Source of the DNA: a virus
Lineage: Duplodnaviria; Caudoviricetes
IMG/VR virus record: IMGVR_UViG_3300043690_000026
Location: 1 to 54,439 of that record
DNA length: 54,439 bases
Reading direction: 5' to 3' (one strand)
The position numbers were made by a program, and so were the translations under genes. Position 1 is the stretch's first letter; every line of letters starts with the position of its first letter. The notes under the pieces were generated by a model that saw only the letters and a list, made by a program, of their open reading frames with translations, made no database searches and was not told the origin of the DNA. Shown here one piece after another: positions 28,621 through 31,055 of this stretch.

Positions 28621-28814
28621 CCTCCGATCTCAGTGACATCGTGAATAAACTTCTCGCCTTCCTCGCGCGTCTTCACCGGAACAAGCATCCCGTGGCCCAC
28701 CGCGTACAGGCCGTCAGCGCGGCTCTCGATGCGGTACGGCCCGCTGGTGTCGAACTCCACTCCATCGTTGAAGGTAATCTTCATTGCGCCGCCCTCGTGT
28801 CTAATCTCCGCCAT
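28617..28814 (-). CDS. Hypothetical protein
   Basis: Coupled chain. Confidence 0.6.
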   Translation of the reverse strand: MAEIRHEGGAMKITFNDGVEFDTSGPYRIESRADGLYAVGHGMLVPVKTREEGEKFIHDVTEIGG

Positions 28815-29146
28815 CAGTACTCCTCCGCCAGCATGATGGTCAGCACGCGCGTGGTTTGCGCCGGATCTTCCGGGTGCTCACTGCCCATCTCGCATTTCTT
28901 GTCGTAGTAGTCGATTTTCCAGAAAATGCGGTGGCCGCAATGTTCGAAGCTCCCGAAGTCGTGTTCCCCGTACGGGTCATCGCCTGGCGTGAAATTGTCG
29001 AACAATTCCACCTTTTCGCGGATCTTCGACTGCTCGGCGGGATCGAAGGCACAGATCCCCGGCGTCTGTATCAGCTTGCCCGCAACGCCCATCGCGGTAC
29101 GGGCCAAATCGTTTAATTGGGCTATGCGCCCGCTGTGATTGCTCAT
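28814..29146 (-). CDS. DUF3768-family protein
   Basis: IAQLND, DPYGEHDFG, IFWKIDYYD, RVLTIMLAEEY signature. Confidence 0.9.
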   Translation of the reverse strand: MSNHSGRIAQLNDLARTAMGVAGKLIQTPGICAFDPAEQSKIREKVELFDNFTPGDDPYGEHDFGSFEHCGHRIFWKIDYYDKKCEMGSEHPEDPAQTTRVLTIMLAEEY

Positions 29147-29194
29147 ATTTATATTTTAATATTGGCAATCCCAGGACTGCTCGTTCTGATCGCT

Positions 29195-29335
29195 TCAGGG
29201 CTTCTTCGCGTCGATCAGCTTCAGTAACTCCCGCCGGTCGTGATGCTCCTGCCAGCCCAGCCACAGGTCCGCGAGTACCAGGGCAAGCCAGAGGGCGATC
29301 ATAAAGACCGTCTTGCCGCGCGGTGGCTCGATCAT
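29195..29335 (-). CDS. 46-aa single-TM peptide
   Basis: ATGA-coupled to mom-like stop; MIEPPRGKTVFMIALWLALVLADLWLGW... Confidence 0.5.
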   Translation of the reverse strand: MIEPPRGKTVFMIALWLALVLADLWLGWQEHHDRRELLKLIDAKKP

Positions 29336-30120
29336 GCGTTCTCCAATCGGGGCTGGAGCGTCGGGGTCGGAATCGAACCGCCCTCTTCGGCGTGGACCGC
29401 CGATGTTTCAGCCTGAATACTACCGACGCGCTTGCCGCGAACCATCCGCGCGCCCATCTCACCGATCGCCGAGTAAGGGATGATCGGCACCGTGAGCCGG
29501 CTGCGTGCGGCTGGGTTCAGAAAGTATATATACCGCAACTGAAAACCGTCGAGCGGTTTGAAGCCCGCCCGCTTGTAATGGTCCATGTCGGCGCCACCGT
29601 GATATTCCGTGCGCCGCGCAATCTCGTTGACCTTCCTCATGCTCGTGCGCTCTCCGACGTTCGAGATCACGGTCCCATCCGGCCCAATCCACAGCGTCGT
29701 GTTGCGCTTGATCCGCGTCAGCACGAAGCCCGCCGCGCGATAGATCGTGCCGTCGCCGCATTGCGTGGCATCCGCGAAAGAGACGATCCATTCGACCTGC
29801 GGATACTCGCGCCGCATCAGCCGCATGGCCACGCCGAGAGCGCGACTCTCGGAATTGCGCGGCAGGTTGTCGGAGAAGGCCAGCCGGTTCAATTCGAGGA
29901 ACCCGTACCAGCTGGTGCCCTCGACCAGGCCGAGGAGCTTGCGGCGGTCGAGCGAGGGGCCGAACTGCATCGCTCCCTCGAGCCGCCCCGTATTCGAGAA
30001 AACTCCCAGATGAAGTTGGGAGTTCGCGACGACCTTATGAGAGTAATGCAGCCTTCGGACAAGGGCGTTTGCATCCTGGCTCGAGATGGGTGCGACCCGG
30101 ATATCCTTTGCCCCGCTCAA
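29332..30120 (-). CDS. mom: Mom-like GNAT-fold DNA adenine modification enzyme (probable TTG start at 30120)
   Basis: HYSHK, LELNRLAF, NSESRAL, SFADATQCGDGTIYRAAGF, QLRYIYFL motifs; GGAG RBS and TTGA overlap with upstream stop. Confidence 0.8.
   Translation of the reverse strand: MSGAKDIRVAPISSQDANALVRRLHYSHKVVANSQLHLGVFSNTGRLEGAMQFGPSLDRRKLLGLVEGTSWYGFLELNRLAFSDNLPRNSESRALGVAMRLMRREYPQVEWIVSFADATQCGDGTIYRAAGFVLTRIKRNTTLWIGPDGTVISNVGERTSMRKVNEIARRTEYHGGADMDHYKRAGFKPLDGFQLRYIYFLNPAARSRLTVPIIPYSAIGEMGARMVRGKRVGSIQAETSAVHAEEGGSIPTPTLQPRLENA
29354..29429 (-). tRNA. tRNA-Gly(TCC)-like element embedded in mom-like CDS (non-canonical)
   Basis: 76 nt: acceptor GCGTCGG/CCGACGC, T73, CCA, anticodon stem TCGGC/GCCGA with TCC, GGTTCGATTCC T-arm. 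Confidence 0.75.
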
Positions 30121-31055
30121 AATAAGCTCCCTTCGGCTGGATCGTTGAACTTCCTGGAGGTTGGAACAGTCCTTCTCGTTGCAGCTGCTTTCAATTCTGC
30201 AATGCGTCGCGCTCGGACCTCTGGGTCTTTCCACTGGGCTCTTGCATCCTGAGACCGTTTGGCCCTCACTTCCGGCGTGCGACTCCACCCCAGGCTTGCA
30301 GATATCTTTGCCCTATAGCTTGGATCTTGCCAGTTTGCCGTTGCTGCACTGGAAAGTTTGGCCCTAACCTCAGGGCGGGCGCTTGCGTCCCTTATCGCCG
30401 CCGTAACCCGCGCTTTGTATTCTGGGTCCGCCCATCGCGCCGCCATGTTCGCCGCCGCCCGCTGCCTTACCTTCGGGTTTGCCCTTGCAGCTTTTAGCGC
30501 CGCAGATCGTTTTGCGATCATGGCGGGGTTTCGCACTTTTCGCGCTGGTGAAATCGGCCGCGATGCTTCCCAATAAGCCGGACTCTCTGCGGCTTTAACG
30601 AAATAATCGCTCCACGCCTCCGACGATAATTGCCATCGCCCTTCTTTTGGTACACGGGTTTGCAACCCCAATTGCTCTTGAAACAGCCACCGCGCCAACG
30701 CCTCAAACTCTTGAAGCGCCCCTGGATCACTTCTAGCTAGCTCTGGCCAGGCGAAGATTTCTTCAGCGACGGACCGGTCCTCCAGCGCAAGTTGAAGATG
30801 CTTCTCAACGGCCGCCGCCAACGCTGGCGTAGCGAATTTTAAGAGTGGCCCCAAGAGCCACACTTCATTGGGACACTGGGCGGCGTGTCTGTGTAACCGC
30901 TCGTATGGATCTTTAGTCGATCCGATTTTCACTAAGTCTCCCGGCCATCTCAATAAATAGATGTAGCCGAATGGTGCGAATCGTCCCTTAGCTTCAACTG
31001 AATGCTCGGTGAACATGGAGATAGGAGCCACGCGGATGTCTTTAGCGGTCGCCAC
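30117..31055 (-). CDS. GIY-YIG/T5orf172-type putative homing endonuclease with NUMOD3-like C-terminal repeats
   Basis: GYIYLL...VKIGSTKDPYERL; repeated W(A/Q/K)DP(E/S)(Y/V)(K/R)A. Confidence 0.75.
   Translation of the reverse strand: MATAKDIRVAPISMFTEHSVEAKGRFAPFGYIYLLRWPGDLVKIGSTKDPYERLHRHAAQCPNEVWLLGPLLKFATPALAAAVEKHLQLALEDRSVAEEIFAWPELARSDPGALQEFEALARWLFQEQLGLQTRVPKEGRWQLSSEAWSDYFVKAAESPAYWEASRPISPARKVRNPAMIAKRSAALKAARANPKVRQRAAANMAARWADPEYKARVTAAIRDASARPEVRAKLSSAATANWQDPSYRAKISASLGWSRTPEVRAKRSQDARAQWKDPEVRARRIAELKAAATRRTVPTSRKFNDPAEGSLF

What the first reader, a model, noticed from the sequence alone, without database searches (positions are those of the whole stretch)
29354..29429. tRNA-Gly-like RNA encoded inside the Mom-like DNA-modifying gene: enzyme and possible dedicated glycyl donor in one locus
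Seen (- strand): GCGTCGG TA GTATTCAGGCTGAAAC A TCGGC GGTCCAC GCCGA AGA GGGCGG TTCGATT CCGACC CCGACGC T CCA, 76 nt, which is also translated as ...RVGSIQAETSAVHAEEGGSIPTPTLQ. It has a perfect 7-bp acceptor stem, a perfect 5-bp anticodon stem, a TCC anticodon and encoded CCA. Established: bacterial GlyRS identity elements G1-C72, C2-G71, G3-C70, U73, C35 and C36 are all present, while features needed for translation are altered (G32/G33 instead of Y32/U33, irregular T-stem and D-arm), reminiscent of non-proteinogenic staphylococcal tRNA-Gly. Mu Mom makes N6-carbamoylmethyl-adenine; my recollection that Gly-tRNA-Gly is the donor should be verified. Inference: the phage supplies a chargeable, ribosome-avoiding tRNA-Gly mimic for DNA hypermodification, and its excision would cut the mom mRNA, giving autoregulation. 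Best candidate here for an undescribed system.
Basis: partly seen in the sequence, partly recalled or inferred. Interest (0 to 1): 0.92.

Follow-up and report, generated by a model that had tools for sequence, protein, structure and literature searches.

The report
tRNA-Gly-like RNA nested in mom
The end of this phage's Mom-type DNA-modifying gene also encodes a conserved, non-decoding relative of glycine tRNA, which probably gives the enzyme its own glycine carrier for chemically masking phage DNA.

Summary
The 76-nt sequence is exactly as described. On its own it is unconvincing: ARAGORN finds nothing, Rfam gives a sub-threshold match, and the fold z-score is -1.6. Comparison settles it. A covariance model built from 20 relatives finds the element at the 3' end of mom, on the mom strand, in 79 of 80 related viral loci. 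About 95% of cells are paired, against 32-48% in slid controls, and 20 of 22 pairs show compensatory changes. The element lies in all three reading phases, sometimes contains the stop codon, and is intergenic and duplicated in a cultured Psychrobacter phage. Selection therefore acts on RNA, not peptide. G1-C72, C2-G71, U73 and an NCC loop, the bacterial GlyRS determinants, are near-invariant. The model's only match in the E. coli K-12 chromosome is tRNA-Gly(UCC). Mu Mom is now known to use Gly-tRNAGly (PMC13219725), and that paper describes no dedicated RNA. Best reading: a phage-encoded, ribosome-excluded glycyl carrier for Mom. Charging, processing and use are untested.

The parts
29354..29429 (-). 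tRNA-Gly-like element, 76 nt, cloverleaf, nested in the 3' end of the mom ORF
   Evidence: Sequence read. R1 scores it 87.8 bits and it is the only hit in the 54-kb window; it was part of the training set.
29423..29429 (-). Acceptor stem, 5' strand (positions 1-7). G1 C2 G3 are near-invariant in the family.
   Evidence: Acceptor pairs are 100% paired in A2; pairs 4-7 all show compensatory changes. GCG is found in 69 of 70 elements.
29405..29420 (-). D arm (positions 10-25), a 4-bp stem with an 8-nt loop. In the window pair 12-23 is an A-A mismatch.
   Evidence: Pairs 11-24, 12-23 and 13-22 covary. This arm is missing in the 67-70-nt class.
29387..29403 (-). Anticodon-type arm (positions 27-43). 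32-38 is paired and the 5-nt loop is G33 T34 C35 C36 A37 (29393-29397).
   Evidence: 5 of 6 pairs are compensatory in A2. The loop holds NCC in 70 of 70 elements: TCC 41, ACC 26, GCC 2, CCC 1.
29365..29382 (-). T arm (positions 48-65): 5-bp stem, 7-nt loop TTCGATT, bulged A at 29367.
   Evidence: The 5' and 3' strands of the T stem change together in every variant, and the bulged A is present in 70 of 70 elements.
29354..29364 (-). Acceptor stem 3' strand (29358-29364), discriminator T73 (29357), CCA (29354-29356).
   Evidence: The discriminator is T in 70 of 70 elements and CCA is encoded in 58 of 70.
29332..30120 (-). mom-family gene, 262 codons. The likely start is TTG at 30120, preceded by AAGGGAG; the stop is at 29332-29334, 20 nt past the CCA.
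   Evidence: Pfam PF25680 Mom, E 3.3e-51. PHROG 1384, Mom-like. 39% identical to Mu Mom over 223 aligned columns. Start region read. In the AlphaFold model the domain is confident and residues 234-254 and 258-262 fall below pLDDT 50.

Best explanation
The element is a tRNA-Gly(UCC)-derived RNA gene that travels with mom-family genes. In this clade it is nested in the last 25 codons of the mom ORF.

Shown: it is a conserved four-arm (in some clades three-arm) structure on the mom sense strand. The sequence features that bacterial GlyRS uses are kept. The features needed for decoding and for EF-Tu binding are altered.

Inferred: it is released from the mom transcript by ordinary tRNA processing (RNase P at the 5' end; trimming, or CCA addition where CCA is not encoded, at the 3' end). 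The host GlyRS then charges it with glycine, recognising G1-C72, C2-G71, U73 and C35/C36. It stays off the ribosome because of the 5-nt loop without U33, the bulged T stem and the non-TPsiC loop found in most members. It hands its glycyl group to Mom, which transfers it to N6 of adenine in phage DNA, as Mu Mom does with host Gly-tRNAGly. The phage thereby makes enzyme and private co-substrate from one locus without competing with translation.

Because the RNA overlaps the ORF, excision would also cut the mom message. This may limit Mom dosage, but that is conjecture.
For: (1) The structure is real. In A2, 95.7% of cells pair against 32-42% in slid controls, and 14 of 22 pairs are compensatory. 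RNAalifold gives the same cloverleaf independently. In the 73 distinct model-fitted matches, 95.3% of cells pair against 33-48%, and 20 of 22 pairs are compensatory. G-U pairs fit the sense strand only.

(2) The constraint is on RNA, not peptide. Of the 70 loci where the mom frame could be placed (of 80 tried), the CCA phase is 2 in 53, 0 in 10 and 1 in 7. The stop codon is inside the element in 8 and before it in 1. In Psychrobacter phage vB_PmaS_Y8A two tandem copies lie in the intergenic gap after mom. The encoded tail is predicted to be disordered.

(3) The link to mom is tight. R1 hits 79 of 80 Mom-selected viral loci, always on the mom strand at the 3' end; the one miss is a contig that ends inside mom. 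A nucleotide pattern that carries no Mom information gave 81 matches in 80 viral loci. Of these, 74 abut a Mom domain (60 with Mom upstream, 14 downstream), 5 have a cut flank and 2 have none.

(4) Glycine identity. In 70 distinct elements: GCG at 1-3 in 69, T73 in 70, and NCC in the loop in 70. The determinants G1C72, C2G71, C35, C36 and U73 are taken from PMC10464925 (passages read). In the whole E. coli K-12 chromosome R1 matches only glyT, tRNA-Gly(UCC), at 49.5 bits. ARAGORN calls two family members tRNA-Gly(tcc).

(5) Signs that it is handled as a tRNA. 12 of 70 elements lack an encoded CCA, as many tRNA genes do. Tandem copies occur. One member is followed 7 nt later by a tRNA-Cys gene.

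(6) Signs that it does not decode. 115 of 137 elements have a 5-nt loop. ARAGORN reports a two-base anticodon in 9 further members. The bulged A in the T stem is invariant. The T loop starts TGC or TGT in 35 of 70 elements and TTC in 13, like the staphylococcal non-proteogenic tRNAGly that bind EF-Tu poorly (PMC7826273, passages read).

(7) Mom chemistry. Mu Mom needs Gly-tRNAGly with its terminal riboadenosine, accepts all three isoacceptors and rejects Gly-tRNAAla (PMC13219725).
Against: There is no direct evidence for the RNA. The one RNA run found holds only two 151-nt contigs, both inside the mom ORF.

Mu Mom works with host tRNAGly. Mu, JD024 and pAEv1818 lack the element anywhere in their genomes, so a private carrier is not required for the chemistry.

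Pair 4-69 is mostly pyrimidine-purine (U-A 36, C-G 25 of 73). This is the opposite of what L. plantarum GlyRS prefers (PMC10464925).

4 of 70 elements have G3-U70, which I recall as the AlaRS determinant.

Whether GlyRS can read C35/C36 in a 5-nt loop is unknown.

In bacterial genomes, 11 of the 35 true elements with enough flank have no Mom gene that I could detect beside them.

Excising the RNA would destroy the mom message, which is awkward if both products are needed. Nesting inside the ORF, at the 5' or the 3' end, also fits a role in cis.
Confidence: 0.6

Rival explanations
1. A tRNA mimic that acts in cis. The element stays within the mom mRNA and is bound by Mom (or by GlyRS) to control its own translation or stability, in the manner of the tRNA-like operator of thrS mRNA (recalled). 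It is not charged and donates nothing.
For: The element is nested in the mom ORF in most loci. The stop lies after it in 60 of the 69 placed loci that do not run off the contig. In 21 of 22 'Mom downstream' loci the Mom frame runs straight through it, with candidate start codons 7-52 nt upstream of it or, in two loci, only inside it (one locus has none before the Mom domain). That is a position where a bound structure could block initiation. Mu mom is known to be under tight translational control; the Mu record annotates Com as a translational activator.
Against: Tandem intergenic copies, elements with no mom beside them and a member inside a tRNA array do not fit a cis operator. An internal CCA cannot mimic a charged end. 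C35/C36 are GlyRS determinants, whereas Silva et al. suggest that Mom reads the acceptor end. Nothing in this rival explains the 12 of 70 elements without an encoded CCA, which would need tRNA-type maturation to gain one. This rival can also coexist with the carrier model.
Confidence: 0.17
2. A pure processing or stability signal. The tRNA-like fold recruits RNase P and 3' trimming enzymes to separate mom from neighbouring cistrons or to cap the 3' end. It has no role after cleavage.
For: The element lies inside a same-strand gene string. The next ORF starts at 29335 and overlaps the mom stop. Sequence similarity to other phages in metagenome contigs stops at or within 8 nt of the CCA end (tables 5 and 7).
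Against: RNase P does not need U73, G1-C72/C2-G71 or an NCC loop, yet these are kept in 69-70 of 70 elements. The exclusive partnership with mom across many phyla is left unexplained.
Confidence: 0.1
3. A working translational tRNA-Gly, or a decoy that protects host tRNAGly from tRNA-targeting defences. Its place next to mom would then be historical accident.
For: A few family members look nearly canonical. ARAGORN calls L227 and L229 tRNA-Gly(tcc). Phage tRNAs with altered anticodon loops that evade host nucleases have been described (PMC10264068; search listing and start of abstract only).
Against: 115 of 137 elements have a 5-nt loop and the window's has no U33. The D arm is lost in about half of the Mom-selected elements. 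ARAGORN rejects the element in the window and in 52 of 52 scanned loci of the window's clade. The association with mom is far too tight for accident.
Confidence: 0.05
4. Only the C-terminal peptide (GGSIPTPTLQ) is selected and the fold is coincidental; or the sequence is a DNA site, such as an attP that copies a host tRNA gene.
For: The peptide motif is conserved in protein alignments down to about 55% identity.
Against: Every conserved residue is dictated by an invariant RNA position. Radical amino-acid changes accompany perfectly compensated stems. The element occurs in three reading phases, with internal stops, and in intergenic copies. The tail is predicted to be disordered. An attP would match one host tRNA half and would not covary in all four helices.
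Confidence: 0.02

Closest known systems
Non-proteogenic tRNAGly of Staphylococcus (NP1-3), dedicated to the Fem/FmhB glycyl transferases (PMC7826273)
   Same: A tRNAGly(UCC) paralogue that keeps the GlyRS identity set but departs from the features used in translation. TGC or TGT replaces TTC in the T loop in most family members. It is paired with an aminoacyl-tRNA-dependent GNAT-fold transferase that uses glycine.
   Different: It is phage-borne rather than chromosomal. The presumed acceptor is DNA, not peptidoglycan. The loop has 5-6 nt, the T stem has an invariant bulged A, and the D arm is often missing. It is physically nested in the ORF of its partner enzyme. It has no lineage relation to the staphylococcal genes. 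Its function is untested.
Phage Mu Mom with host Gly-tRNAGly (Silva et al., Nat Commun 2026, PMC13219725)
   Same: The enzyme family is the same: PF25680, 39% identity over 223 aligned columns. The ELNR arginine and SES serine are invariant. I infer that these are the paper's essential R111 and S124, assuming a numbering offset of 10. The same glycyl chemistry is expected.
   Different: Mu scavenges host tRNA and has no such element anywhere in its genome. The terms 'tRNA-like' and 'mimic' each occur 0 times in that paper.
Aminoacylatable 3' tRNA-like structures of plant RNA viruses (recalled; review PMC5723415 seen as a search listing only)
   Same: A virus-encoded tRNA mimic within a coding transcript, ending in CCA, and presumed to be a substrate for a host synthetase.
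   Different: Those sit at the 3' end of an RNA genome, use pseudoknotted acceptor stems and serve replication or translation. This one has a plain 7-bp acceptor stem, lies inside a DNA-phage mRNA and is tied to a DNA-modifying enzyme.
tRNA-like translational operators such as the thrS leader (recalled)
   Same: tRNA mimicry inside the mRNA of a protein that binds that tRNA.
   Different: Those mimic single arms in a 5' UTR. This is a full cloverleaf with discriminator and CCA, lies at the 3' end in the window, and is found free-standing and in tandem elsewhere.

Membership tests
Canonical bacterial tRNA gene | Cloverleaf with a 7-bp acceptor stem and D, anticodon and T arms | tested here: met
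   The D arm is absent in the 67-70-nt class.
Canonical bacterial tRNA gene | 7-nt anticodon loop with U33 | tested here: not met
   The window has G32 and G33, and 32-38 is paired. 115 of 137 elements have a 5-nt loop.
Canonical bacterial tRNA gene | Regular 5-bp T stem and a T loop of the T-Psi-C type | tested here: not met
   The bulged A is present in 70 of 70 elements. The loop starts TTC in only 13 of 70, although the window itself has TTCGATT.
Canonical bacterial tRNA gene | Recognised by tRNA finders or by Rfam at the curated threshold | tested here: not met
   ARAGORN finds 0 genes in the window and 0 in 52 loci. Rfam gives 22.3 bits against a gathering score of 47. A minority of distant members are called tRNA-??? 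or tRNA-Gly.
tRNAGly identity set for bacterial alpha2beta2 GlyRS | G1-C72, C2-G71, U73, C35 and C36 (PMC10464925); G3-C70 (recalled) | tested here: met
   All are present in the window. In the family: GCG in 69 of 70, CGC at 70-72 in 65 of 70, T73 in 70 of 70, NCC in 70 of 70.
tRNAGly identity set for bacterial alpha2beta2 GlyRS | Actually charged with glycine by GlyRS | not testable with these tools
   This needs an aminoacylation assay.
Non-proteogenic tRNAGly (staphylococcal type) | T loop TGC or TGT instead of TTC; weak EF-Tu binding; preferred by a dedicated transferase | tested here: inconclusive
   TGC or TGT in 35 of 70 family members, but TTC in the window. EF-Tu binding and transferase preference cannot be tested here. 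There is no lineage relation.
Mom family (Pfam PF25680) | Profile match above the curated cut-off, with conserved catalytic motifs | tested here: met
   174.3 bits against a cut-off of 27.1. The ELNR and PRNSESR motifs are invariant in 30 sequences. The mapping to the paper's R111 and S124 is inferred.
Viral 3' tRNA-like structure (plant-virus type) | Located at the 3' terminus of the genomic RNA, with a pseudoknotted acceptor arm | tested here: not met
   This is a DNA phage, the element is internal to a gene string, and the acceptor helix is a plain 7-bp stem.

The most novel reading that the evidence does not exclude
A widespread class of mom genes, found in phages and prophages of hosts in at least seven bacterial phyla, is dual-coding. 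Inside the enzyme's own reading frame, at its 3' or its 5' end, lies a tRNAGly derivative that is kept off the ribosome. It is cut out of the message, glycylated by host GlyRS and used as Mom's private glycyl donor for adenine hypermodification of DNA. Each transcript therefore yields either enzyme or co-substrate, which gives a built-in dosage control.
Probability: 0.35. Interest if true: 0.93.

Novelty: new variant of a known kind. Interest (0 to 1): 0.88.

Why it matters
Mom's co-substrate was only recently identified as host Gly-tRNAGly. This finding says that many Mom relatives, unlike Mu, bring a tRNAGly-like RNA of their own. If that RNA is the donor, it would be the first phage-encoded, non-translational aminoacyl carrier dedicated to modifying DNA, and only the second clear case, after the staphylococcal Fem system, of a tRNA paralogue reserved for a transferase.

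It also gives a natural example of an RNA gene and a protein gene sharing the same nucleotides. It offers a compact enzyme-plus-carrier module of biotechnological interest. It has a practical lesson for annotation too: tRNA finders miss these genes, and the conserved 'C-terminal motif' in Mom alignments is a by-product of the RNA.

A cultured phage-host pair (Psychrobacter phage vB_PmaS_Y8A) carries free-standing copies, so the hypothesis can be tested directly.

Tried and rejected
Single-sequence detectors. ARAGORN on the window and on 52 loci found nothing. Rfam in E-value mode gave only a sub-threshold tRNA-Sec match and no other family. The MFE z-score was -1.62. None of these alone would have supported the finding.

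Peptide-only reading. I rejected this after looking at the DNA.

attP or DNA-site reading. Rejected because all four helices covary and the G-U pairs fit only one strand.

RNA evidence. One search for runs and one laying of reads. The only RNA run (X16, contigs) has two 151-nt pieces at 29439-29589 and 29945-30095 and nothing over the element. This says nothing either way about the element, and DNA carry-over in the library cannot be excluded.

Cultured phages. blastn of the elements against 50,697 phage records found only the Psychrobacter phage. The more canonical L157-type element matched ordinary phage tRNA-Gly and tRNA-Ala genes weakly, over its 5' 60 nt.

Orphan elements in bacterial genomes. 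Pfam scans of 20 flanking stop-to-stop ORFs found no Mom. My choice of ORFs may have missed genes, and three of the loci end close to the element.

The genome contigs pattern scan was half noise. By model R1, 40 of 80 loci hold a true element.

My first hairpin parser picked the D arm in many sequences. Its loop table is superseded.

Supplements of PMC13219725 are closed. I could not check whether the 'Mom Homolog A/B' constructs in that paper contained an element.

Literature searches for prior description. Terms used were Mom, carbamoylmethyl, tRNA, tRNA-like, glycyl-tRNA, momylation, Mom-like and phage-encoded tRNA. None described a Mom-linked tRNA-like RNA. Subscription journals are not covered.

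The counts are therefore samples. The two viral sets share at least 9 contigs.
Full report
OBSERVATION. It lies in ORF 29332..30288(-), which matches Pfam Mom (PF25680, E 3.3e-51, residues 63-273) and PHROG 1384, Mom-like. Relatives begin M-x-T-A-K-D-I-R-V. The DNA shows AAGGGAG followed by TTG at 30120. The gene is therefore most likely 30120..29332, 262 codons, and the element covers codons 230/231-255. The window is a complete 54,439-bp virus record with terminal repeats.

THE SINGLE SEQUENCE DOES NOT STAND OUT. ARAGORN finds no tRNA in the window. Rfam in permissive mode gives only tRNA-Sec at 22.3 bits, E 0.13, against a gathering score of 47. The fold is -30.4 kcal/mol with z -1.62, and 14 of 200 shuffles fold as well.

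RELATIVES SETTLE IT. A protein search gave thousands of Mom relatives. The tail peptide VGS..ET....EGG[SA][IT]PTPTLQ is conserved down to about 55% identity.

I fetched 80 viral loci that encode relatives and looked at the DNA under the motif. The stems differ in sequence between loci but stay complementary.

Twenty 76-nt elements align without a gap (A2). With the cloverleaf written out, 95.7% of cells pair. Shuffles give 73.8% and partners slid by 1-3 columns give 32-42%. Fourteen of 22 pairs have changes on both sides. RNAalifold predicts the same cloverleaf on its own, with 13 of 21 pairs compensatory.

A covariance model (R1) finds full-length matches, E 4e-19 to 1e-5, in the window and in 79 of the 80 loci. 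All are on the mom strand, at the 3' end of mom. One locus has two tandem copies. The single miss is a contig that ends inside mom.

On the 73 distinct matches, 95.3% of cells pair against 33-48% in slid controls, and 20 of 22 pairs are compensatory. This alignment is fitted to the model and includes 3 weak hits. G-U pairs (for example 12 at pair 10-25 and 4 at pair 3-70) fit the sense strand only.

RNA, NOT PEPTIDE. In the 70 loci (of 80) where I could place the mom frame, the CCA falls in phase 2 in 53, phase 0 in 10 and phase 1 in 7. The mom stop lies after the element in 60, inside it in 8 and before it in 1; one ORF runs off its contig.

In the cultured Psychrobacter phage vB_PmaS_Y8A, the Mom-like CDS (52% identical) ends 7 nt before two tandem elements. 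These fill the gap before the terminase small-subunit gene, are the only copies in that genome, and are unannotated.

Each conserved residue of the tail is dictated by an invariant RNA position: GG and PT by the T stem, S/A and I/T by the T loop, LQ by C72-U73-CCA. Where stems change, the amino acids change radically. An AlphaFold model puts the Mom domain at pLDDT around 90 and residues 234-254 and 258-262 below 50, without secondary structure.

ANATOMY. In the 70 distinct elements of the Mom-selected set:
- Lengths: 35 are 75-77 nt, one is 73 nt, and 34 are 67-70 nt and lack the D arm.
- G1C2G3 in 69. Positions 70-72 are CGC in 65, UGC in 4 and GGC in 1; the GGC case compensates the single GCC.
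- Discriminator U in 70. CCA encoded in 58; the other 12 read UUUC, UUUA and similar.
- T stem: 5 bp with an invariant bulged A between the third and fourth pair. The two strands change together in every variant (GGCGG/CCG-A-CC 53, GACGG/CCG-A-UC 6, GGCAG/CUG-A-CC 4, and so on).
- T loop: 7 nt, starting UGC 29, UUC 13, GGC 8, CGC 7, UGU 6.
- The 32-38 positions are usually Watson-Crick paired. The loop is N-[U/A]-C-C-[A/C], and an NCC triplet is present in 70 of 70 (UCC 41, ACC 26, GCC 2, CCC 1).

Over all 137 distinct elements, 115 have a 5-nt loop. Part of that larger set was selected by a pattern that fixes the T stem and CGCUCCA, so those invariants hold there by construction.

IT IS A tRNA-Gly RELATIVE. 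R1 scores E. coli glyT, tRNA-Gly(UCC), at 49.5 bits. thrT scores 36.2, glyV 34.6, thrU 28.1 and tyrU 5.5. In the whole K-12 chromosome glyT is the only match at E <= 0.01, with the stricter filters. The window's D arm and T loop resemble those of glyT.

Members next to more distant Mom genes look more canonical. ARAGORN of 18 such loci 'tRNA-???' with a two-base anticodon (tc). It calls two others tRNA-Gly(tcc); one of these lies directly after mom in an Anaerococcus cruorum isolate. One element is followed 7 nt later by a tRNA-Cys gene.

ASSOCIATION WITH MOM. I scanned with a nucleotide pattern for the 3' half of the element, which carries no Mom information. All are full elements by R1.

A Mom-domain HMM, cut before the tail so that the test is not circular, places a Mom domain directly upstream in 60, directly downstream in 14, nowhere in 2 (one of them has Mom 1.4 kb away), and 5 have less than 700 nt of flank.

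In bacterial genomes the same pattern is half noise. By R1, 40 of 80 loci are true elements. Of these, 24 abut Mom, 5 are flank-limited and 11 have no Mom that I could find.

Hosts named in the records with element plus Mom include Micavibrio, Pseudolabrys, Oceanicaulis, Anaerococcus and Clostridium. They also include members of Chloroflexota, Actinomycetota, Planctomycetota, Verrucomicrobiota and Acidobacteriota.

Mu, Pseudomonas phage JD024 and Aeromonas phage pAEv1818 (Mom 36-37% identical) have no element anywhere in their genomes.

A SECOND ARRANGEMENT. In 21 of the 22 'Mom downstream' loci the Mom frame runs open through the element, in the same phase as in the window (..LQ or ..LH, then the N-terminal I-R-x-x-P-I motif). 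Candidate start codons lie 7-52 nt upstream of the element in 18 loci; two have a start only inside it, at about +14, and one has none before the Mom domain. Only one locus has stops between element and Mom. The element is therefore nested at the 5' end of mom in those phages and at the 3' end in the window's clade. I have no firm explanation for this nesting.

WHAT IS KNOWN. Silva et al. (Nat Commun 2026, PMC13219725; abstract and sections 9, 10, 14 and passages read; preprint 10.1101/2023.03.24.534169 seen in listings) show the following. Mu Mom transfers glycine from Gly-tRNAGly to N6 of adenine in dsDNA, and the product then rearranges to 6-NcmdA. All three E. coli isoacceptors work. Gly-tRNAAla and a 2'-deoxy-A76 tRNA do not. 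The authors describe the tRNA as scavenged from the host and suggest that Mom reads the acceptor end. 'tRNA-like' and 'mimic' occur 0 times in that paper.

Determinants for bacterial alpha2beta2 GlyRS are G1C72, C2G71, C35, C36 and U73 (PMC10464925, passages read). G3-C70 is my recollection.

Staphylococcal non-proteogenic tRNAGly carry TGC or TGT in the T loop, bind EF-Tu poorly and are preferred by FmhB (PMC7826273, passages read).

MECHANISM. Shown: a conserved tRNAGly-derived RNA structure on the mom sense strand, tightly linked to mom, that keeps the GlyRS determinants and has lost decoding features.

Inferred: processing by the tRNA maturation machinery, glycylation by host GlyRS, exclusion from EF-Tu and the ribosome, and use by Mom as glycyl donor. 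I put this at about 0.6.

The main rival (0.17) is a cis-acting mimic through which Mom controls its own message. The nesting favours it. The free, tandem and orphan copies, the anticodon conservation and the CCA-less members count against it. The two readings could both be true.

Points against the carrier model:
- There are no RNA data. The only RNA run covers two stretches inside mom.
- Mu manages without the element.
- Pair 4-69 is mostly Y-R, which L. plantarum GlyRS disfavours.
- 4 of 70 elements have G3-U70.
- The 5-nt loop is untested as a GlyRS substrate.
- 11 elements in bacterial genomes have no Mom gene beside them that I could find.

The window's Mom looks active. It is 39% identical to Mu Mom over 223 aligned columns, and the ELNR and PRNSESR motifs are invariant. 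I infer that these contain the paper's essential R111 and S124, given a numbering offset of 10.

NOVELTY. I found no description of a Mom-linked tRNA-like RNA (searches; Rfam scan). The concept of a tRNAGly paralogue reserved for a transferase exists in staphylococci. What is new: the phage setting, DNA as the target, the nesting inside the enzyme's ORF, the shortened anticodon loop, the invariant T-stem bulge and the breadth across phyla. I rate it a new variant of a known kind, of high interest, and directly testable in a cultured phage.

Noticed in passing
window 30117-31055 (-), and 30081-30120: A T5orf172/MUG113 (GIY-YIG-like) ORF sits directly upstream of mom. It begins with its own Shine-Dalgarno sequence, GTG, and a copy of the first 12-13 mom codons (MATAKDIRVAPIS). 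8 of the 10 shared codons are recoded synonymously relative to the real mom start. This looks like a homing-endonuclease-type insertion that carries a recoded copy of its target.
   Followed up: partly
window 30118-30120: The listed ORF start (GTG at 30288) is probably wrong. Relatives and an AAGGGAG motif point to TTG at 30120 as the mom start.
   Followed up: partly
L090-L160 and L209-L283 (22 loci): In a divergent Mom clade the element is nested at the 5' end of the mom ORF. The frame is open through it in 21 of 22 loci. Candidate start codons lie 7-52 nt upstream of it in most, only inside it (about +14) in two, and one locus has none before the Mom domain.
   Followed up: partly
L006 3295-3432; L113 4375-4519; L082 2162-2302: Tandem duplicate elements occur in three independent contigs, one of them the cultured Psychrobacter phage.
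   Followed up: partly
L017, L019/L020, L023, L032, L040, L052, L054, L055, L060, L061, L062, L065: 12 of 70 distinct elements keep U73 but do not encode CCA; they read TTTC, TTTA, TCCT and similar. This implies post-transcriptional CCA addition if they are functional.
   Followed up: no
4 of 70 elements, e.g. L044 1885-1960 and L045 1297-1372: Pair 3-70 is G-U, the alanine identity pair (recalled). These members might be charged with alanine, or they may simply tolerate the wobble.
   Followed up: no
L220, L221, L229, L244, L248, L254, L259, L272, L273, L274, L282: True elements by R1 in bacterial genomes or MAGs with no detectable Mom gene beside them. In L254 an ORF with a weak ParB_N match (below the Pfam cut-off) runs through the element. 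In L259 a tRNA-Cys gene follows 7 nt later.
   Followed up: partly
window 29184-29354: In metagenome contigs of other samples, similarity to the window breaks at or within 8 nt of the CCA end. X12 replaces 29185-29345 with 13 other letters, and an X9 contig diverges exactly at 29354. The 3' end of the element is therefore a mosaic boundary between related phages.
   Followed up: no
window 29195-29335 (-) and 28814-29146 (-): Downstream of mom lies a 46-codon hydrophobic ORF whose ATG overlaps the mom stop (ATGA). After it comes a DUF3768 gene. Neither has a known function.
   Followed up: no
window 29439-29589 and 29945-30095: A soil metatranscriptome run holds two 151-nt contigs identical to the inside of mom. 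This is a weak hint of transcription, and DNA carry-over is not excluded.
   Followed up: no
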